Positions 3,088 to 45,311 of a stretch of DNA of 64,000 nt are shown here, one piece after another. The notes under the pieces were generated by a model. That model was not told where the DNA came from. It searched no databases and was given only the letters and a program-made list of their open reading frames with translations. The stretch is from Escherichia coli (GTDB lineage Bacteria > Pseudomonadota > Gammaproteobacteria > Enterobacterales > Enterobacteriaceae). Position 1 is the first letter of the stretch, and each line of letters opens with the position of its first letter. The translations under genes were made by a program, and so were the position numbers. The stretch lies in NCBI RefSeq assembly GCF_029227855.1, contig NZ_CP074356.1. The stretch is one strand, 5' to 3'.

Positions 3088-3669
3088 ATGTCGGATACCA
3101 CCGAACTGGTTGATTTAGCCGTGATCTTCCCTGATCTGGAGATCGAACTGAAATACGCCTGCGCTGATAACATCACAGGTAAAGCTATTTATCAGCAAGC
3201 GCGTTGTCTGTTACACAAGGATGCGATTACCGCGCTGGCGAAAAGTATCAGTATCGCCCAGCTGTCAGGCTTACAACTGGTGATTTACGATGCGTATCGC
3301 CCACAACAAACACAGGCGATGTTGTGGCAAGCCTGCCCAGACCCGCAATATGTTGTTGATGTGGCGGTCGGTTCTAATCACAGCCGTGGCACGGCGATCG
3401 ACCTGACGCTTCGTGATGAGCACGGGAACATCCTGGATATGGGTGCAGAGTTCGATGAAATGCACGAACGTTCCCATGCTTATCACCCTTCCGTCCCGCC
3501 CGCTGCTCAGCGCAATCGGCTGCTGCTGAATGCGATTATGACTGGCGGTGGCTTTGTCGGTATCACGAGCGAATGGTGGCACTTCGAATTACCCCAGGCA
3601 GCGAGTTACCCACTACTCGCTGATCAATTCACCTGTTTTATATCCCCTGGCACACAGCACGCCAGTTAA
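3088..3669 (+). CDS. ddpX: D-Ala-D-Ala dipeptidase
   Basis: 193 aa ORF, VanX-like zinc dipeptidase (SNHSRGTAIDL, EWWHFE); first gene of the ddp operon. Confidence 0.9.
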   Translation: MSDTTELVDLAVIFPDLEIELKYACADNITGKAIYQQARCLLHKDAITALAKSISIAQLSGLQLVIYDAYRPQQTQAMLWQACPDPQYVVDVAVGSNHSRGTAIDLTLRDEHGNILDMGAEFDEMHERSHAYHPSVPPAAQRNRLLLNAIMTGGGFVGITSEWWHFELPQAASYPLLADQFTCFISPGTQHAS

Positions 3670-3682
3670 TCAGGAAACTGTC

Positions 3683-5233
3683 ATGAAGAGATCGATTTCG
3701 TTTCGTCCTACATTGCTCGCGATCGTCCTTGCCACAACAATGCCGGTTGCGCACGCCGCCGTACCGAAAGATATGCTGGTGATCGGTAAAGCCGCCGACC
3801 CACAAACCCTCGACCCAGCGGTGACAATTGATAATAACGACTGGACAGTGACCTACCCGTCTTATCAGCGACTGGTTCAGTACAAAACGGACGGTGATAA
3901 AGGCTCAACCGACGTTGAAGGCGATCTGGCAAGTAGCTGGAAAGCGTCTGACGATCAAAAAGAGTGGACGTTCACCCTGAAGGACAATGCTAAATTTGCC
4001 GATGGCACACCTGTCACTGCCGAAGCAGTAAAACTCTCTTTTGAGCGGTTACTAAAAATCGGCCAGGGGCCAGCAGAAGCATTTCCCAAAGATTTAAAGA
4101 TTGATGCTCCCGACGAACATACGGTGAAGTTTACCCTTAGCCAGCCATTCGCACCGTTCCTCTATACGCTGGCGAATGACGGTGCATCCATTATCAATCC
4201 GGCGGTCTTAAAGGAACATGCGGCCGATGATGCCCGTGGTTTCCTCGCGCAAAATACCGCTGGCTCCGGACCGTTTATGCTGAAAAGCTGGCAAAAAGGT
4301 CAGCAATTAGTTCTGGTGCCAAATCCGCATTACTCCGGCAATAAACCGAACTTTAAGCGAGTATCGGTAAAAATTATCGGTGAAAGTGCCTCCCGTCGCC
4401 TGCAGCTCTCCCGTGGCGACATTGACATTGCCGATGCGCTGCCGGTGGATCAACTCAACGCACTGAAGCAGGAAAACAAAGTCAACGTGGCAGAGTATCC
4501 GTCACTGCGCGTCACCTATCTGTATCTGAATAACAGCAAAGCGCCACTTAATCAGGCGGATCTGCGTCGGGCCATTTCCTGGTCTACCGATTATCAGGGT
4601 ATGGTTAACGGCATTCTGAGTGGTAACGGAAAACAAATGCGCGGCCCGATTCCGGAAGGCATGTGGGGATACGATGCGACGGCAATGCAATACAACCATG
4701 ACGAAACGAAAGCCAAAGCCGAATGGGATAAAGTGACGAGCAAACCCACCAGCCTGACGTTTCTCTACTCCGATAACGACCCGAACTGGGAACCGATCGC
4801 TCTGGCGACACAATCCAGTCTCAACAAGCTGGGCATCAATGTGAAGCTGGAAAAACTGGCGAACGCCACCATGCGCGACAGAGTGGGTAAAGGTGATTAC
4901 GACATTGCGATTGGCAACTGGAGCCCGGATTTTGCCGACCCGTATATGTTTATGAATTACTGGTTTGAGTCAGACAAAAAAGGTCTGCCGGGTAACCGCT
5001 CGTTCTATGAAAACAGTGAGGTCGATAAGTTACTGCGCAATGCGCTAGCGACCACCGACCAGACGCAGCGTACCCGGGACTACCAGCAGGCACAGAAAAT
5101 CGTCATTGATGACGCTGCTTATGTGTACCTGTTCCAGAAAAACTACCAACTGGCGATGAACAAAGAGGTGAAAGGTTTTGTGTTCAATCCCATGCTGGAA
5201 CAGGTCTTCAATATCAATACCATGAGTAAATAA
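3683..5233 (+). CDS. ddpA: Periplasmic D,D-dipeptide-binding protein (ABC transporter SBP)
   Basis: 516 aa from MKRSISFRP with signal peptide; family-5 solute-binding protein; synteny. Confidence 0.9.
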   Translation: MKRSISFRPTLLAIVLATTMPVAHAAVPKDMLVIGKAADPQTLDPAVTIDNNDWTVTYPSYQRLVQYKTDGDKGSTDVEGDLASSWKASDDQKEWTFTLKDNAKFADGTPVTAEAVKLSFERLLKIGQGPAEAFPKDLKIDAPDEHTVKFTLSQPFAPFLYTLANDGASIINPAVLKEHAADDARGFLAQNTAGSGPFMLKSWQKGQQLVLVPNPHYSGNKPNFKRVSVKIIGESASRRLQLSRGDIDIADALPVDQLNALKQENKVNVAEYPSLRVTYLYLNNSKAPLNQADLRRAISWSTDYQGMVNGILSGNGKQMRGPIPEGMWGYDATAMQYNHDETKAKAEWDKVTSKPTSLTFLYSDNDPNWEPIALATQSSLNKLGINVKLEKLANATMRDRVGKGDYDIAIGNWSPDFADPYMFMNYWFESDKKGLPGNRSFYENSEVDKLLRNALATTDQTQRTRDYQQAQKIVIDDAAYVYLFQKNYQLAMNKEVKGFVFNPMLEQVFNINTMSK

Positions 5234-39480: not shown

Positions 39481-40032
39481 CTATCTTCTTAGCGATGTCT
39501 TTCTGGTATCACATTGGGTCGGTGCAATTATTTTTCCTTTAATACCCATTATGTTAAGAAATTCAGAAACAGCTGTAATCTCATTGTTTTTTTCATTCGT
39601 CTTGATCTTCCAAGGAATCTGACTGTGCATTATTGAGAACACACTAATAACGTGAATCGCTCCCTTGCGACGACTCTTGTCATAAGAGTACCGGAGCGTT
39701 TTTCCATCAATTGCAATGACGTCTTTATCATCTGAAGAATGGCAGTCAAGCATCCAGTTAATAAAGCACTCATGAAATTTTTCAGGACTGATACAGGATA
39801 CAACTCTGGCAATGGTATCGTGAACAGGAATACCATTATCAAAATCACCATATTGCTTCAAAAAATCGAGATGTGTTTCCCCAAAATCCTCTATATCTTC
39901 CCAGCCTTCTGCACCCGAAATAATGGCACAAATAGTCAACAGTAGAATATCCGATAATTTATGTTCCACTTTCCAGGCTTGTCTGTAATCGGGGGTAATA
40001 GAAATATGTTCCATCAATTTTTTAAATTCCAT
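39481..40032 (-). pseudogene. H-repeat-associated (ISAs1-family) transposase, N-terminal fragment (183 codons), truncated at its junction with the cyclase island
   Basis: Near-identical over about 170 aa to the N-terminus of the full-length H-rpt ORF at 46075..47211, then diverges into a short unrelated tail. Confidence 0.7.
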
Positions 40033-40617: not shown

Positions 40618-41103
40618 TCATATTTTTAATATAGCCCCATGAGCTATAGGATCAAAACCTTCTAACCATGAGGTGTTTTTATCGAATAATGCACCTGTTA
40701 TATTTATATCGCCATATCTATCACATAATAAATTAGCGCCACATAAGTCAGCACCAGAAAAATTTGAATCTTTAACGTCTGCATTGCAAAAGGTTGAATT
40801 AGTTAATATAGCACCCTCAAAGTTTGCACCTATTGACCTTGAATTACTAAAGTCACTTCCAGTGAAATCTGAGTTATTAAGAATAGCGTTCATCAGAGCC
40901 GCATTGCGAAAGACAGCATTTCTAGTTGATGTATGTTGAATCATTACATTTCTTAAATGGGAATTTTCAAATTTCGCCCCATCAAGACAATAACCATTGA
41001 GGATGGCACGATGTAGATCCATCCCGCTAAAATCATATCCAGCAAGAGTGGTACTATCTATATCAAGAAATTTATTGGTTATTAAAAACGCGATTCTTAT
41101 CAT
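40618..41103 (-). CDS. Pentapeptide-repeat protein, putative immunity protein for the rhs2 C-terminal toxin
   Basis: 161 aa with about 20 tandem pentapeptide repeats ([25 protein letters not shown] ... [10 protein letters not shown]); start overlaps the rhs2 stop as ATGA. Confidence 0.6.
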
Positions 41104-44100
41104 CTATTCCCCCAATCATCTAACTCCGGAAAAATTTGGCTAAACGGATATAGTGGTGCCGATAATGGACGCGTACCTGGCCGCTCAGGAGGAAGTTTAT
41201 CACATAACAGACCCGCAACCATCCTGTGATTACCATTAACAATCACATTCCCATCCATATCAACCGGTGGTGCTCCACTACCATCTTCCAGCATTTGTAC
41301 GTAGTGAGCTACTACGGGTACTGAGACTTTTTGTTGTACTGTCAACAAGGGACTGTTGGCCACAACCATCCTGATGTTTTCAGGTGTCGCAGGTAAACAT
41401 TTAGTCTTCTCTTGACTAAAGGTATCATCCCACAATTTTGTTAAACCCATCACTGCCTGTTGTCTGTATTTATCCATGGGGTCAGCAATCAACCAAGATG
41501 GACCTGACTGCTCTATGGAATCTTCTCCGGAGAGACCCAACGGATCTATCTTAGTAGTTGGATTCAATGGATACTGATACAGGTTCCATGCACCTCTTAG
41601 CCCAATGGGATCCTGGGTGATATACCGCCCCTGCAACGGGTCATAGTACCGGTTGCGGTTATAGTACAGCCCCGACTCCTCATCATACTGCTGCCCCGGC
41701 AGACGGTACGGCTGTTGCAGTTGCTGCGCGCTGGTTTCGCCCAGCAGGTTTCCCCACTCGTCATACTCCCCCTGCCACGCCGTTTCCCCTACCGGGCTGA
41801 TGAGCGCCTGCGGCAGCCCCCGGTGGTCGCAGTGGTAAAGATGAAGTGTCCTCTCCGGGATGTATTCCGCCTCCATCTGGTTTTTCATCTGTTCCGCCGT
41901 CAGCCCGCACTGCTGAAGCCATGCCTCACTCTCCGCACTCACCGCACCCGCGCGCAGTTCCCGCTCCAGCCTCCCCAGCATCACCGACAGCTCCGCCGGT
42001 AGCGTCACCCCCGTGTCCTCCTGCAACACCTCCGCCAGACTCCGGTGCCGCGCCTTCGCCTGTTCACCATTCTCTGTTTCGATTCTGATGAGCGGCGTGA
42101 AGCTCCCCGGCTGGTATACCGTCTGGATACGCGTGGTGCCGGTCTGTACCGTCGTCAGCCTGTCACCGTCCCACCCGTACCAGGTCTCCTCCGGTTTACG
42201 CGACAGCGACATCCACCCCGTCAGGTCACGCTCCCGCCGCCACACCCGTTTCCCCGTCCGGCGGCCCAGCGGGTCATAGAGGTAGCGGCTCTCCACCTGT
42301 GGTTCGCCGTGCTGTATCCGCGTGTAGAACACCAGGCGGTGCTGGCTGTCGTAATGGTAGTGGTGGGTCCGCTCGTCGTGCATCCGGATAACCCCTTCCG
42401 GGATACGATCCGTCTTCTCCGCCAGCCTGCCGTATTCATCGTGGCGGTAGACATAGTGCGCATCCTCCGCGATGCGGTTATCCGGCCACGCCGTGAAGGT
42501 GCTGTCCGGGTGCAGTTCCGGGTCCGGCAGCCGGTTTCCTGCCGGGTCCGTCGCATACGGGATATCGATATCCAGGTTCGCCGCCGTGGTGTGAACGCCC
42601 GTCAGTCTTCCCGTGTCGCTGTAACGGTACTTCCGGCTCTCCTGCGGGCCGCTGATGCGCACCAGTTGCCCGTTATCGTTCCACGTATACTCACGGTCAA
42701 GCTGCGGAAGGTTCAGGTGCCTGCTCCGGAGCTGCCCTGTGAGGGTGTACGCCATGGCCTGTTCGTACCCCGCTGTACTGCCCGCCCCGCCGAAGCTGCG
42801 GGCCGTCTCACGGTGCAGCCGGTCCCGCGTGTACTCGACCAGCGGCGTTCCGCCCAGCTTCATCCCCGCAAGATAACCGCTGCCATACGTCAGCCACTCC
42901 ACCGGCGGCAGACCGTCCGGCTCCTGACGGGTCGCCAGCCCCTGTTCGCTGTAGACGTGCCTCGTCTCATGCTCCCACAGCATCTCCCCCGTCTCCTGGT
43001 TCTCCACCGTCTGCCGTTCGCCCGTCAGGCGGCCTTTATCGTCATAGCCGTAGTGGACCGCCACACGGTGGCCTTCGCTCAGGTGGCTGATTTCTGTCAG
43101 CCAGCCGTGGTCGTCATACTGCCACTGCTCCGCCGGGTCGCCGTTCACCGTCCGGTGCGTGATGCGCCCGGCGTCATCGTAGTACCACTGCGTGACCTGC
43201 CCCTCATCCTCGCTGCGGATGAGCTGCCCTGTGGCGCTGTACCGGTAACGCTGTGTCCTGCCGTCAAAGCCGCGCTGCTCCGTCAGCCTGTCCACCGGGT
43301 CATACCGGAACGTGGACTGGCTGCCGTTCTCGTTGGTCAGCACGGTGATGCGCCCGGCGGCGTCATACTCCATGCTGCGCGTCAGTCCGCCCTGCGTGGT
43401 GCTGACGGCCTTTCCCCACGCATCATACTGTGTCTCACTCCGGCTGCCGTTCGGGGCAATGATAGCGGTGAGGTCGCCTGCGGCGCTGTACTCATAACGG
43501 GTTTCACGTCCCTGCGCATCCTTCTGACTGACCAGTTGACCACGCGGGTTATAACTGCTGTAAGTGCTGATGCCTTCCTCCCGGTGAACCGCCGTCCTCT
43601 GACCGTACCGGTCGTATTCATACCGCGTCGTGTACCCTGAACAGTCCGTAAATGCCTGAAGCTGACCGTACCGGTTTCGCGTTATTCTCCGCCTCACCCC
43701 GGTTCCGTCTTCCACCGCACAGGGCAGGCCACTGCGGGAAGAATCATAAAACCAGCGCGTAATGTTACCGTTGCGCGAGACCTCTTCCGCCAGCCTGCCC
43801 TGACGGTCATATTTCCGGCTGCGGCGCAGCCCGTCCGGGTACGTCACTGACGTCAGTTGCAACTGGTTGTTGTAACCATACCGTACCGTCCTGCCGTCCG
43901 GCAGTATCACTGAAGTCAGCTTTCCCGACGCCATATGCAGCCGGTACTCCGTCCGCCGTCCCGCCGCATCCGTCTGCGCCTTCAGCCTCCCCGCCTCATC
44001 ATACTCGCTGCGGGTGATGCTCCCGTCCCCATGCTCCTTCTTCACCACCCGCTTCAGGCCGCCCTCGCCCTCCGTGTACAGCACCTCCCGCCGGTTCAGG

Positions 44101-45311
44101 CTGTCCGTGATGGTCACGCGGTCCTGCCCGTACTCAAAGCGGTAGTCCAGCCCCTCCGGGTTGACCTGCTCCGTCACCCGACCGGTATCATCATACCGGT
44201 AGCGGCTCTCCGGCCTCCCCGCATAATGGTGCGCCACCATCCGCCCGGCGTGCTCCGCATCATAAGTAAACCCGCGCACCTGCGTCCCGCTGCGGTCATA
44301 CACCGCCCGCAGTTCTCCGCTGGCCGTGTACGTGTAGCGCGCCAGCGGCGCAGTCGGCAGTTCATCCAGGTATGCCAGGTCGTGTGTCAGCCATACCGCC
44401 TCCAGCCGGATACCGTTATCGGCACCGTACTCTGTACCGGTGGGCAGCGTGTCGGGGAAAACCTGAGAAGAGGAAACAGAACGGGGACTGGCCGGAGAAG
44501 ATAAAGAAGAGGCGCGCTGTTTACGGAAGGCTTTCGCCCGCTGCGCCTGTGTGGTCAGCGCCAGATGAAAACGGCGGCCCGCGCCGTCCGTCACCCCCGT
44601 CACCGCGCCCGCCGCTTCCCCCTCTGCCGCCCGGTGGAAGGCCAGCGTCCGCCCGAAGCTGTCCACCACGCCCGTCAGCACCCGGTATGCGGGCGGCTCC
44701 GGCGGCAGCACCTCGTCCGCCTCCGGCACCCGCTCCGGCCAGCCGAGTATCCACCACGGCCCCTGAAGGCTGTTTGTCGCCAGGTACACATGCGGGCTTA
44801 AGCGGAGACTCTCCGGCAGCACCTGCCAGAGCGCGCTTAGCGGCTGCGAACTGTGCTGCTCCGCCACCCCGCCCCTTGCCAGCCAGAACGACTCGCTGCG
44901 GCTGTAGCTTATCTCGCCGGGAAACAGCGGCTCAAAGTGAATGCTCCTGCCGCCACTGTCGTTGAGTATCAGTTCCCGCTCATGAACCTGTAAGCGGATA
45001 TCGAAGGGCGCTTTCCAGCCGGGACCAAACACCCCCACCGGCGCGGGTGTTCTGGTCCGGTAGCTGCTGTAGGCGCGGGAAAGAATAAACGGCAACGGGC
45101 CGGGCAGCGCAAGATCCGTCTCGCCCGGCAGCACCTTCGCACCCAGTAGCGGGTTCACCGGGTTACCCTTCTGCTCCTCCACCGGGCTGTTGGGACACAC
45201 CGAGCAGGCCACTCCCGTCGGCGCACCTATCAGCACCCCCGCTGAACCCTGCACAATATCCAGTCCCTTGCGGGTCATATCGCCCTGTCGCGCCGCCGGT
45301 TTTCCGCTCAT
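41100..45311 (-). CDS. Full-length Rhs polymorphic toxin (PAAR-like N-terminus, YD-repeat shell, DPxGL cleavage motif, unassigned C-terminal tip)
   Basis: 1403 aa intact ORF; N-terminus [12 protein letters not shown]..; many YD repeats; ...[16 protein letters not shown]...IDPLGL followed by about 145 aa of sequence unrelated to rhs1. Confidence 0.9.
41500..45311 (-). repeat. Rhs core, direct repeat with the rhs1 core at 48540..52088
   Basis: Long near-identical protein stretches between the two rhs ORFs (e.g. [54 protein letters not shown] in both), same strand. Confidence 0.7.

What the first reader, a model, noticed from the sequence alone, without database searches (positions are those of the whole stretch)
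40618..41540. Unassigned Rhs C-terminal toxin paired with a pentapeptide-repeat immunity protein
Seen in sequence: the about 145 aa after IDPLGL in rhs2 (…[25 protein letters not shown]…[31 protein letters not shown]…DDWGNR) match no toxin family I can recognise. The ATGA-coupled downstream gene is a nearly pure pentapeptide-repeat protein of about 20 repeats. Established knowledge: pentapeptide-repeat proteins such as Qnr, McbG, AlbG and MfpA form DNA-mimicking beta-helices that protect DNA gyrase/topoisomerase IV from poisons. Inference: the rhs2 tip may target gyrase/topo IV or another DNA-binding enzyme and be neutralised by DNA mimicry or target protection. A pentapeptide-repeat immunity partner for an Rhs effector is, as far as I know, not a described arrangement.
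Basis: partly seen in the sequence, partly recalled or inferred. Interest (0 to 1): 0.8.

Follow-up and report, generated by a model that had tools for sequence, protein, structure and literature searches.

The report
ParB-like Rhs toxin, pentapeptide-repeat immunity
An E. coli Rhs contact-weapon protein ends in a small toxin with the ParB/sulfiredoxin nucleotide-binding fold, and its overlapping downstream gene encodes a pentapeptide-repeat protein; this pairing recurs across many bacterial phyla and I found it in no catalogue, but nothing links it to DNA gyrase.

Summary
rhs2 (41100..45311, minus strand) ends in a 143-aa tip after DPLGL. A 161-aa pentapeptide-repeat (PRP) gene (40618..41103) overlaps its stop codon by ATGA.

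The tip matches nothing in Pfam, NCBIfam or PDB by sequence, but it is not unassignable. It belongs to a family of at least 329 protein clusters, always at the C-terminus of carrier proteins. Its model (pLDDT 94) has the ParB/sulfiredoxin fold, and its GNHR motif aligns with the GCHR motif of sulfiredoxin. This matches the "Tox-ParB" class predicted in 2012 (DGHHR motif).

The PRP is almost certainly the cognate immunity protein:
- A homologue lies directly downstream in 54 of 65 loci from more than eight phyla, whatever the delivery system.
- It diverges faster than the toxin.
- Decayed orphan copies sit in Rhs orphan-immunity arrays of other E. coli.

It fails the Qnr and MfpA family thresholds, and its model shows no C-terminal helix. 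Gyrase targeting is therefore unsupported.

Some relatives carry HAD-phosphatase-like partners instead, which hints at phosphotransfer chemistry.

Verdict: a new variant of a known kind. The PRP is a previously uncatalogued immunity type for a ParB-fold toxin class that, as far as I know, has never been tested biochemically.

The parts
41100..45311 (-). rhs2: intact 1403-aa Rhs effector. It has an RHS-core-type N-terminus, YD repeats and a C-terminal tip.
   Evidence: ORF. The N-terminal 265 aa match NF041261 RHS_core positions 1-262 (E=4.6e-154). Annotated 'RHS element core protein' in RefSeq E. coli genomes. GC is about 65% in the core.
41532..41546 (-). DPLGL motif that ends the conserved Rhs core. 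By established knowledge of Rhs proteins this is the site of C-terminal autoproteolysis that releases the tip.
   Evidence: Translation. The same PxxxxDPxGL context occurs in rhs1 and in homologue P0002.
41415..41531 (-). 39-aa variable linker (pre-toxin segment) between DPLGL and the toxin domain.
   Evidence: Homologues match from about tip residue 40 onwards. The columns before that are poorly conserved.
41103..41414 (-). Toxin domain of 104 aa (protein residues 1300-1403) with a ParB/sulfiredoxin fold.
41223..41234 (-). GNHR motif (residues 1360-1363), in a strand-Gly-helix element. It is equivalent to GCHR of sulfiredoxin and to DGHHR of Tox-ParB, and is the predicted NTP-phosphate-binding or catalytic site.
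   Evidence: In the family alignment G is present in 144 of 144 sequences, H in 143 and R in 139. Aligned with the sulfiredoxin GCHR. Lies at the junction of strand 57-60 and helix 62-70 in the model. Reverse complement of cctgtgattacc read.
40618..41103 (-). Pentapeptide-repeat protein of 161 aa: the predicted cognate immunity protein.
   Evidence: Pfam Pentapeptide hits. Homologue directly downstream of the toxin in 54 of 65 loci. Family-specific conserved residues include H31, R32, R51 and the T144-x-W146-P-x-G-F-D-P cap. Beta-helix model with pLDDT above 90. PRP folds in PDB match it.
41100..41103 (-). ATGA stop/start overlap, which suggests translational coupling of toxin and immunity genes.
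   Evidence: Sequence. The same 4-nt overlap (distance -3) recurs in many of the related loci.
52155..54368 (-). vgrG at the head of the cluster. Context only: it implies T6SS delivery.
   Evidence: TIGR03361 VI_Rhs_Vgr, E=5.4e-188, 625.7 bits against a cut-off of 186.
39481..40032 (-). Degenerate ISAs1 (H-repeat) transposase remnant that bounds the module downstream.
   Evidence: ORF. Annotated as a frameshifted ISAs1 family transposase in strain KE55.

Best explanation
This is a T6SS-associated Rhs polymorphic-toxin module. After cleavage at DPLGL, rhs2 releases a tip of about 143 aa. The last 104 residues of that tip form a ParB/sulfiredoxin-fold domain belonging to the Tox-ParB kind, with a DG[N/H]HR motif that reads NGNHR in E. 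coli.

By analogy with every characterised member of that fold, the toxin binds a nucleoside triphosphate through the Gly-x-His-Arg element. It then acts on a phosphate-containing cytoplasmic target, either by phosphoryl transfer or by phosphodiester cleavage of nucleic acid.

The translationally coupled 161-aa pentapeptide-repeat beta-helix is the cognate immunity protein. It most likely neutralises the toxin by binding it directly and blocking its substrate or NTP face, possibly as a mimic of a nucleic-acid substrate. It does not act by protecting gyrase.

Shown here: gene anatomy, fold, motif, family breadth, conserved toxin-PRP synteny and the divergence pattern. Inferred: proteolytic release, T6SS delivery, NTP binding, the chemistry and direct binding.
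For: Anatomy and context: with vgrG upstream and the RHS_core match.

Toxin family: 329 clusters, always C-terminal. Carriers include Rhs, DUF637/filamentous haemagglutinin (CdiA-type), Hint/intein, wall-associated and SpvB/TcdB proteins.

Immunity: a PRP homologue lies within 250 nt downstream on the same strand in 54 of 65 loci, and within 30 nt or overlapping in 47. These loci span Proteobacteria, Bacteroidota, Bacillota, Actinomycetota, Myxococcota, Planctomycetota, Verrucomicrobiota and Acidobacteriota. Only 56 ORFs hit the PRP profile in all 330 kb. Three loci were checked by hand. The PRP is less conserved than the toxin in 92% of pairwise comparisons; toxins about 81% identical have PRPs about 54% identical. 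Degraded orphan PRP copies lie among other immunity genes downstream of another Rhs element in about 132 E. coli genomes.

Chemistry hint: relatives carry HAD-phosphatase-like partners in place of the PRP.
Against: No experiment exists, and neither toxicity nor rescue has been tested.

In E. coli the acidic residue of the DG[N/H]HR motif is Asn (NGNHR). It is Asp or Glu in 135 of 144 relatives, so this allele could be attenuated.

The single-chain AF2 model of toxin, linker and PRP gave pTM 0.66. By my estimate, unpacked domains would give about 0.55 and confident docking about 0.8. No PAE or coordinates were available, so direct binding is neither shown nor excluded.

Conserved synteny would also be expected for a target-protecting or product-sequestering partner.

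The PRP is only mildly acidic (net -5; family median -6), which is weak support for nucleic-acid mimicry.
Confidence: 0.6

Rival explanations
1. The tip poisons DNA gyrase or topoisomerase IV, or another DNA-binding enzyme. The PRP protects the target by DNA mimicry, as Qnr, MfpA, AlbG and McbG do, and does not bind the toxin.
For: The partner is a true PRP beta-helix. Qnr, MfpA and AlbG structures are among its significant matches, both by sequence and by fold. It is mildly acidic. Conserved synteny does not by itself exclude target protection.
Against: - The PRP scores 20-37 bits against Qnr and MfpA equivalog models whose cut-offs are 240-500 bits.
- It is 161 aa, and its model contains no helix of 4 or more residues, so no C-terminal helix is predicted.
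- Its best fold matches are synthetic solenoids and cyanobacterial Rfr proteins.
- It diverges faster than its toxin. From my own knowledge gyrase is highly conserved, so a protector of it would be expected to evolve slowly.
- The toxin fold (ParB/Srx) has no known link to topoisomerase poisoning.
- Alternative partners in the same toxin family are HAD-phosphatase-like proteins, not DNA mimics.
Confidence: 0.07
2. The toxin is specifically an NTP-dependent phosphotransferase (a kinase), like sulfiredoxin and the free serine kinases of the same fold. It phosphorylates an essential molecule such as an RNA or tRNA end, a nucleotide or a protein. The PRP blocks it by binding. In other lineages a HAD phosphatase gives immunity by removing the phosphate.
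For: - The closest structural matches include the ATP-dependent phosphotransferases sulfiredoxin, SerK and SbnI.
- GNHR aligns with the ATP-binding GCHR of sulfiredoxin.
- Six of the 11 loci without a PRP encode HAD-like proteins immediately downstream. Four of these match PF18143 HAD_SAK_2 (E=1.5e-22). Two are 118-aa proteins with a DVDDTL motif that start on the ATGA overlap.
- The catalytic DxD, TTS and DDD motifs are invariant in 124 HAD homologues.
- Stand-alone 127-aa ParB-like genes sit 18 nt upstream of HAD_SAK_2 genes in two different Bacteroidota genome contexts.
Against: - All of this is inference from partners found in other lineages. The HAD-paired Bacteroidota proteins are the most divergent branch (E about 1e-17 to 1e-20) and have no delivery domain, so they may not be toxins at all.
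- HAD-fold proteins could act merely as binders.
- PMC3482391 favoured a nuclease role for Tox-ParB.
- One of three HAD_SAK_2 genes examined was next to a STAS protein instead.
Confidence: 0.3
3. The toxin is a ParB-like metal-dependent nuclease (DNase or RNase), as originally predicted for Tox-ParB. The PRP is a nucleic-acid-mimicking inhibitor that plugs its substrate groove.
For: - Nucleases dominate among polymorphic-toxin tips, and PMC3482391 predicted a nuclease role with DGHHR as a metal site.
- From my own knowledge, MfpA is described as a DNA T-segment mimic; an MfpA-gyrase fragment complex, 6zt5, is listed.
Against: - From my own knowledge, NTP binding is the best-established activity of this fold, and nuclease activity of ParB-fold domains is poorly established. 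PMC3482391 itself notes that the original nuclease label rested on erroneous assumptions.
- A stand-alone phosphatase partner would not repair a cleaved polymer.
- The E. coli allele lacks the acidic residue of the motif.
Confidence: 0.25
4. The PRP is not an immunity protein. It is a T6SS or Rhs accessory factor (chaperone or adaptor), like the TagAB and TagB pentapeptide proteins of some T6SS clusters.
For: Pentapeptide proteins are known T6SS accessory components in vgrG islands (PMC3942780; the Burkholderia glumae reference cited).
Against: - The PRP follows the toxin domain, not the secretion system. It is found after the same tip on CdiA-type, SpvB/TcdB, Hint and Gram-positive carriers.
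- It lies downstream of the toxin with a stop/start overlap, which is the canonical immunity position. The accessory PRPs described in PMC3942780 lie in the vgrG islands, between the major rhs element and vgrG.
- Decayed orphan copies sit in an orphan-immunity array.
Confidence: 0.04

Closest known systems
Tox-ParB polymorphic toxin domains (Zhang, de Souza, Anantharaman, Iyer & Aravind 2012, PMC3482391)
   Same: A C-terminal ParB-fold toxin domain on RHS or filamentous-haemagglutinin carriers, with a strongly conserved D-G-H-H-R-type motif. Here the family consensus is DG[N/H]HR, and the Bacteroidota branch has exactly DGHHR. The phyletic spread is wide and delivery systems are multiple (T5SS, T6SS, T7SS-type and others).
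   Different: This family is not detected by any Pfam ParB model. The partners that paper lists for Tox-ParB are Imm20, Imm27 and Imm-SuFu, not a pentapeptide-repeat protein. The E. coli allele reads NGNHR. As far as I know, no member has been tested experimentally.
Sulfiredoxin and the free serine kinases SerK and SbnI (ParB/Srx-fold ATP-dependent phosphotransferases)
   Different: There is no catalytic Cys (Asn in its place). Sequence identity is 9-19%. The toxin carries extra conserved residues (T-x-Q, V-S-x-P, D-W-G-N) that sulfiredoxin lacks. Its substrate is unknown.
Qnr, MfpA, AlbG and McbG topoisomerase-protecting pentapeptide-repeat proteins
   Same: A right-handed quadrilateral beta-helix of A(D/N)LXX-type repeats, a small cytoplasmic protein and a protective role against a toxic agent.
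   Different: It falls far below the family score thresholds. It is shorter (161 aa, against the 183-221-position Qnr and MfpA profiles), and its model shows no C-terminal helix. It is genetically tied to a protein toxin domain, not to a gyrase poison or a resistance plasmid, and it evolves fast. It has family-specific N-terminal (MIxIxFETG...LHRA) and C-terminal (YDxxTxWPxGFDP) caps.
Tse6/Tsi6a of Stenotrophomonas rhizophila (bioRxiv 10.64898/2026.07.13.738213, July 2026)
   Same: A PAAR-Rhs effector whose tip has unknown function. Its cognate immunity is reported as structurally similar to a pentapeptide-repeat protein. Orthologues occur on Rhs, HINT, TPS and other carriers in Actinomycetes, Planctomycetes and Proteobacteria.
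   Different: That tip is described as rare (37 strains) and was provisionally called a nuclease, with no ParB/Srx assignment. No sequence was available to me, so identity with the present family is unresolved.
Classical Rhs toxin/immunity modules of Enterobacteria. From my own knowledge, examples include Dickeya RhsA/RhsB with RhsI; the Salmonella Rhs main and orphan genes are described in PMC7043789 (abstract).
   Same: A GC-rich YD-repeat core, DPxGL, an AT-rich polymorphic tip, an immediately downstream immunity gene, flanking H-repeat/ISAs1 elements, orphan modules and vgrG linkage.
   Different: Only the identity of the tip (ParB/Srx fold) and of the immunity protein (PRP).

Membership tests
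Rhs/YD-repeat polymorphic toxin (T6SS-associated) | RHS element core with a conserved N-terminus and YD repeats | tested here: met
   The N-terminal 265 aa match NF041261 RHS_core positions 1-262, E=4.6e-154. RefSeq annotation is 'RHS element core protein'.
Rhs/YD-repeat polymorphic toxin (T6SS-associated) | A PxxxxDPxGL motif that separates the conserved core from a variable C-terminal tip, with a drop in GC content | tested here: met
   IDPLGL followed by a 143-aa tip. GC is 65% in the core and 34-45% in the tip and PRP gene.
Rhs/YD-repeat polymorphic toxin (T6SS-associated) | Linked vgrG or PAAR for T6SS loading | tested here: met
   VgrG (TIGR03361, 625.7 bits) at 52155..54368, upstream of rhs1-rhs2 on the same strand. 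Actual secretion was not tested.
Rhs/YD-repeat polymorphic toxin (T6SS-associated) | A cognate immunity gene immediately downstream that neutralises the tip | tested here: inconclusive
   Position, ATGA coupling and conserved synteny are met. Neutralisation itself cannot be tested with these tools.
ParB/sulfiredoxin superfamily (Tox-ParB kind) | ParB/Srx alpha+beta fold | tested here: met
ParB/sulfiredoxin superfamily (Tox-ParB kind) | Conserved G-x-x-R (DGHHR or GCHR) phosphate-binding motif at a strand-helix junction | tested here: met
   In 144 sequences G is invariant, H is present in 143 and R in 139. The family consensus is DGNHR, and a subset has DGHHR. The motif aligns to the sulfiredoxin GCHR. 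The E. coli allele has N in place of D.
ParB/sulfiredoxin superfamily (Tox-ParB kind) | Significant match to a curated ParB sequence model (Pfam ParBc or related) | tested here: not met
   No Pfam hit for the tip. The only hit is ddrB-ParB at E=0.35 for the domain. The profile search against PDB sequences found nothing significant. Membership therefore rests on fold, motif and hhalign P=1.3e-3.
ParB/sulfiredoxin superfamily (Tox-ParB kind) | NTP binding or phosphoryl-transfer or nuclease activity | not testable with these tools
   Needs biochemistry.
ParB/sulfiredoxin superfamily (Tox-ParB kind) | C-terminal position on polymorphic-toxin carriers | tested here: met
   Nearly all listed matches end at or within a few residues of the protein C-terminus. 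Carriers are Rhs, DUF637/FilH, Hint and SpvB/TcdB proteins.
Qnr / MfpA / AlbG / McbG topoisomerase-protecting PRPs | Pentapeptide-repeat right-handed beta-helix | tested here: met
   Pfam PF00805, PF13599 and PF13576. Strand periodicity of 5 in the model. Foldseek PRP hits.
Qnr / MfpA / AlbG / McbG topoisomerase-protecting PRPs | Reaches the curated family score (NCBIfam equivalog or exception models) | tested here: not met
   MfpA 37.2 bits against 360. Qnr 32.3 against 240. QnrB 33.5 against 460. Others lower.
Qnr / MfpA / AlbG / McbG topoisomerase-protecting PRPs | C-terminal alpha-helix that mediates tail-to-tail dimerisation into a DNA-like rod (feature taken from my own knowledge of the published structures) | tested here: not met
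   DSSP on the model finds no helix of 4 or more residues in the PRP part, and the protein ends in a conserved T-x-W-P-x-G-F-D-P cap. The oligomeric state itself was not tested.
Qnr / MfpA / AlbG / McbG topoisomerase-protecting PRPs | Binds and protects gyrase or topoisomerase IV | not testable with these tools
   Needs biochemistry. Indirect evidence is against it (faster divergence than the toxin).
T6SS accessory pentapeptide proteins (TagAB/TagB type) | Encoded in the vgrG island, between the major rhs element and vgrG, independent of the toxin tip | tested here: not met
   Here the PRP is downstream of the tip and co-varies with the tip across non-T6SS carriers. The TagAB/TagB description comes from PMC3942780.

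The most novel reading that the evidence does not exclude
The ParB/Srx tip is a secreted NTP-dependent kinase toxin. It phosphorylates an essential nucleic-acid end (for example tRNA or another RNA) or a metabolite. Evolution has found two unrelated antidotes for it: a pentapeptide-repeat beta-helix that mimics the substrate and plugs the enzyme, and HAD phosphatases that erase the modification. As far as I know, this would be the first biochemical activity shown for the Tox-ParB class, the first PRP whose natural ligand is a protein toxin rather than a topoisomerase, and a case of enzymatic (reversal) immunity alternating with inhibitory immunity within one toxin family.
Probability: 0.22. 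Interest if true: 0.8.

Novelty: new variant of a known kind. Interest (0 to 1): 0.6.

Why it matters
**An untested toxin class.** ParB-fold toxins were predicted in silico in 2012, and I found no paper that gives them an experimentally defined activity. This family is large (at least 329 clusters at 50% identity), spans more than eight phyla and rides on T5SS, T6SS and Gram-positive carriers. It is also present in 143 of 5426 complete E. coli genomes, many of them from human, animal or clinical sources.

**A new natural role for pentapeptide-repeat proteins.** From my own knowledge, the PRP superfamily is very large, yet only a few members have a known function, and those mostly concern topoisomerase protection. 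A PRP family with a clear, genetically defined protein partner would add a second natural role. It would also give a tractable system for asking what PRP helices recognise.

**A testable hypothesis for the chemistry.** The alternation with HAD phosphatases suggests phosphoryl transfer, and this can be tested directly.

**Practical value.** The finding allows E. coli Rhs tips now labelled only 'RHS element core protein' and 'pentapeptide repeat-containing protein' to be annotated as a toxin/immunity pair.

Tried and rejected
**Sequence searches of the tip.**
- Searches against Pfam, NCBIfam and PDB returned nothing.
- A 42-sequence profile against PDB gave only insignificant SRP54 N-domain hits (E of 0.2 or more), which I rejected as chance.
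- A Pfam scan of all alignment members gave no ParB hit below E=0.1.
- The word-indexed homologue search found only 4 close relatives. The exhaustive representative search was needed to see the family.

**Test for direct toxin-PRP binding.** I predicted a single chain made of toxin, a (GGGGS)x6 linker and the PRP, using a paired 30-row alignment. It gave pTM 0.66. The tool returns no PAE or coordinates, so I treat this as inconclusive.

**DNA-mimic idea.** I looked at charge. The PRP is only mildly acidic (net -5; family median -6), so this does not discriminate.

**Stenotrophomonas Tse6/Tsi6a.** I tried to establish whether it is the same family. The preprint text gives no sequence or motif, so this stays unresolved.

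**Literature.** Searches for pentapeptide immunity with Rhs, CdiA or polymorphic toxins, and for characterised ParB-like effectors, found no description of this pair. Two searches on HAD and RNA-repair links returned nothing useful.

**The 118-aa DVDDTL partner.** It reaches only weak scores against HAD-like references: baculovirus 38K at E=0.026, phrog_1238 at E about 7e-4 and Pfam DUF705 at E=0.16. I therefore call it HAD-like and do not claim more.

**Rejected readings.**
- The PRP ORF is a chance ORF: rejected because of the Pfam hits and cross-phylum conservation.
- The PRP is a T6SS accessory protein: rejected because it follows the tip onto non-T6SS carriers.


Full report
**1. Observation**

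The window is an E. coli chromosomal segment. Neighbours of the finding include yddE, nhoA, yddH and pptA, and the 923-bp query is 100% identical to strain KE55.

On the minus strand the order is:
- vgrG (52155..54368; TIGR03361, 625.7 bits);
- rhs1 (48525..52088, apparently frameshifted) with its tip and a small downstream gene;
- an ISEc1/H-repeat transposase;
- the intact rhs2 (41100..45311, 1403 aa);
- a 161-aa ORF (40618..41103);
- a decayed ISAs1 copy.

The ATG of the downstream ORF overlaps the rhs2 stop codon as ATGA. GC content falls from about 65% in the core to 34-45% over the tip and the downstream gene.

The downstream protein hits Pfam Pentapeptide families (E=1.8e-8 and others). 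The tip hits nothing in Pfam, NCBIfam or PDB by sequence. The module occurs at 99% identity or more in 143 of 5426 complete E. coli genomes.

**2. What the tip is**

An exhaustive HMMER search of 1.84 billion cluster representatives found 329 proteins at E<=1e-3 and 118 at E<=1e-10. The match is essentially always at the extreme C-terminus of proteins that range from about 100 to 2388 aa. That is the signature of a polymorphic-toxin tip.

The conserved unit is the last 104 residues. Its consensus is T..I......T.Q..VS.P.V.RYV..L..G...PPIKVDG..IVDGNHRY.AG...P...PG...P...ID..DWGN. In 144 sequences the Gly is invariant, His is present in 143 and Arg in 139.

Foldseek against AFDB50 recovered family members that UniProt already labels "ParB/Sulfiredoxin domain-containing protein". 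They sit on Rhs, DUF637/filamentous-haemagglutinin, Hint/intein and wall-associated carriers.

I compared the family profile with human sulfiredoxin. The comparison aligns PPV(D) with PPID and GNHR with the ATP-binding GCHR signature, P=1.3e-3. Pfam gives only a sub-threshold ddrB-ParB hit at the same motif (E=0.35).

Zhang et al. 2012 (PMC3482391) described "Tox-ParB": ParB-fold tips on RHS and FilH carriers with a strongly conserved DGHHR motif. They predicted nuclease or phosphotransferase activity and listed Imm20, Imm27 and Imm-SuFu as partners. The present family (DG[N/H]HR; the Bacteroidota branch has exactly DGHHR) is that kind of toxin or a sister branch of it.

So the tip is unassigned by sequence models but not by fold. 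One caveat: in the E. coli allele the acidic residue before the Gly is Asn (NGNHR), whereas 135 of 144 relatives have Asp or Glu.

**3. What the pentapeptide protein is**

I scanned one genome per species (GTDB r220) with the toxin motif. This gave 65 confirmed loci in Neisseria, Aggregatibacter, Pseudomonas, Achromobacter, Pantoea, Budvicia, Sinorhizobium, Flavobacteriia, Sphingobacteriia, Bacillota, Actinomycetota, Sorangium, Pirellula, Verrucomicrobia, Acidobacteriota and others.

I built an HMM from four hand-checked partners: the window protein, L002, L003 and L006. With it, 54 of 65 loci have a homologous PRP ORF on the same strand within 250 nt after the toxin stop. In 47 it lies within 30 nt or overlaps. 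Only 56 ORFs in the whole 330 kb hit that profile.

Of the 11 loci without a PRP:
- two are cut by the contig end;
- six have HAD-like genes (see section 4);
- one (L061) has an unrelated 158-aa protein immediately downstream;
- one (L017) has only a 958-aa ORF starting 126 nt after the toxin stop;
- one (L069) is a weak, partial toxin match.

The PRP follows the tip whatever the carrier. Examples are an SpvB/TcdB-type 2388-aa toxin, DUF637/CdiA-type proteins and Gram-positive proteins. This rules out a T6SS-specific accessory role.

The family has its own conserved features: an N-terminal cap, an invariant L-H-R-A motif, an invariant Arg, and a C-terminal Y-D-x-x-T-x-W-P-x-G-F-D-P cap. Divergent Cys-rich variants in Neisseria and Aggregatibacter keep the FHR motif.

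Across 435 pairwise comparisons the PRP is less conserved than its toxin in 92% of cases. For example, toxins about 81% identical have PRPs about 54% identical. The two identities correlate (r=0.71). This is the usual behaviour of toxin-binding immunity proteins.

About 132 further E. coli genomes carry only a decayed fragment of this PRP gene (95% identity). It lies among other immunity genes (NTF2-fold immunity protein, DUF6258, YbbC/YhhH) in the orphan array downstream of another Rhs element.

I therefore regard the PRP as the cognate immunity protein with high confidence, although rescue has not been demonstrated.

**4. How it probably works**

From my own knowledge, every well-characterised member of the ParB/Srx fold binds a nucleoside triphosphate at the Gly-x-x-Arg element: sulfiredoxin and the serine kinases SerK and SbnI use ATP, and ParB, KorB, Noc and PadC use CTP. 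The tip conserves exactly that element, so I infer NTP binding.

Two chemistries are plausible: phosphoryl transfer to a target, or phosphodiester cleavage, which is the older Tox-ParB prediction.

An unexpected clue favours phosphoryl transfer. Six loci without a PRP carry small HAD-phosphatase-like genes in the immunity position.
- In four Bacteroidota loci the partner matches PF18143 (HAD_SAK_2, the HAD domain of "Swiss Army Knife" RNA-repair proteins; E=1.5e-22). Its DxD, TTS and DDD catalytic motifs are invariant in 124 homologues.
- In Mitsuaria and Paucibacter the partner is a 118-aa protein with a DVDDTL motif I that starts on the ATGA overlap. The HAD-like assignment there rests on weak scores.
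- Working back from the HAD side, two of three HAD_SAK_2 genes examined, in unrelated genome neighbourhoods, are preceded at 18 nt by a stand-alone 127-aa ParB-like gene homologous to the tip (E=3e-23 and 8e-18).

A lone phosphatase can undo a phosphorylation. It cannot repair a cleaved polymer.

This inference is drawn from other lineages, and the Bacteroidota proteins lack delivery domains, so I hold it at about 0.3.

For the PRP itself the most economical mechanism is direct occlusion of the toxin, possibly by mimicking a nucleic-acid substrate. The single-chain AF2 test gave an intermediate pTM of 0.66 and is inconclusive. The charge is only mildly negative.

**5. The gyrase hypothesis**

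Nothing found supports it.
- The PRP is far below the curated Qnr and MfpA thresholds.
- It is short, and its model has no helix of 4 or more residues. From my own knowledge, the topoisomerase-protecting PRPs dimerise through a C-terminal helix.
- Its best structural matches are synthetic solenoids and cyanobacterial Rfr proteins, not Qnr, MfpA or AlbG.
- It evolves faster than the toxin.
- The toxin fold has no precedent as a topoisomerase poison.

I give this model about 0.07.

**6. Comparison with what is known, and novelty**

The Rhs architecture is classical. ParB-fold tips were catalogued in 2012, and I found no paper that characterises one. In the held text of that catalogue (the first 300,000 characters) the word "pentapeptide" does not occur, and its tables pair Tox-ParB with other immunity families.

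Full-text searches found no paper that describes this pair. The one near-precedent is a July 2026 preprint. It reports that the immunity protein Tsi6a of a Stenotrophomonas Rhs tip, Tse6, resembles a pentapeptide-repeat protein. That tip is described as a rare domain of unknown function and was provisionally called a nuclease. I could not determine whether it belongs to the present family.

I classify the finding as a new variant of a known kind: a conserved, widespread pairing of a ParB/Srx toxin with a PRP immunity protein, and an alternative HAD partner that suggests the chemistry.

**7. Verdict**

- Observation: confirmed.
- Interpretation: partly supported. Immunity: yes. Unassignable toxin: no. 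Gyrase: no evidence.
- Interest: 0.6. The module is not categorically new, but it opens two long-standing blanks to direct experiment: what ParB-fold toxins do, and what non-topoisomerase PRPs bind.

Noticed in passing
window 47929..52088 (minus strand): rhs1, directly downstream of vgrG, looks frameshifted at the core/tip junction. The 1187-aa ORF ends '...GEYDEWGTC*'. The sequence then continues in another frame as a 203-aa ORF ('[11 protein letters not shown]...YDPLQGRY...[43 protein letters not shown]...') that matches RHS_core positions 1188-1261. This is either a pseudogene or a sequencing error. Its tip and the 135-aa downstream ORF (47558..47965, no NCBIfam hit) were not analysed.
   Followed up: partly
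L078 5001-5319 (E. coli EC42405, NZ_CP043414.1 373644-373962), and about 131 other genomes: A decayed orphan copy of the PRP immunity gene: about 95% identity to query positions 202-521, annotated as two partial CDS. It lies in the orphan array downstream of another RHS element next to rbbA/yhhJ, among an NTF2-fold immunity protein, DUF6258 and YbbC/YhhH genes. The 143 genomes with the full module also have a second matching place.
   Followed up: partly
L058, L065, L067, L071 (about 3340-3810); L072 3600-4465; L074 3599-4465: In Bacteroidota, stand-alone ParB/Srx-like genes of about 127-150 aa with an exact DGHHR motif are followed about 18-24 nt downstream by a 145-158-aa HAD_SAK_2 (PF18143) phosphatase-like gene with invariant catalytic motifs. 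The HAD family has at least 1887 members in the protein database. The two-gene cassette occurs in different genomic neighbourhoods and has no delivery domain. It may be a toxin-antitoxin-like or a kinase/phosphatase pair.
   Followed up: partly
L011 1173-1526; L034 348-701 (Mitsuaria, Paucibacter): Tips from the main clade (about 45% identical to the E. coli tip) are followed, with a 4-nt overlap, by a 118-aa protein carrying a HAD-type DVDDTL motif I instead of a PRP. HAD similarity is weak (38K/AC98 at E=0.026; phrog_1238 at about 7e-4). In L011 the toxin itself appears frameshifted.
   Followed up: partly
L007 584-1033, L009 1155-1604, L008 3279-3836, L010 3311-3709: The partners in Neisseria, Aggregatibacter and an uncultured gammaproteobacterium are divergent, Cys-rich pentapeptide proteins ('SFTNCNFINCSFITA...') with an extra N-terminal segment. 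They start 48-108 nt after the toxin and keep the (D/N)FHR motif.
   Followed up: no
L001 12039-13252 (E. coli KE55): In strain KE55, which is identical over the tip and PRP, rhs2 is interrupted by an IS3-family ISEc31 element. The effector there is a pseudogene while the PRP gene stays intact.
   Followed up: no
L032 553-1304 and 2950-3237 (Candidatus Thiomargarita nelsonii): One contig holds two copies of the toxin domain. One is followed directly by a PRP. The other has no PRP, and the next ORF is an unrelated 189-aa protein about 400 nt away. This may be an array of orphan tips.
   Followed up: no
window 45732..47211 and 39481..40032 (minus strand): H-repeat (ISAs1/ISEc1) transposase genes flank rhs2 on both sides: one intact 378-aa copy plus a 121-aa fragment upstream, and a decayed 183-aa copy downstream. 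This is typical of Rhs elements and a plausible route by which the module was acquired.
   Followed up: no
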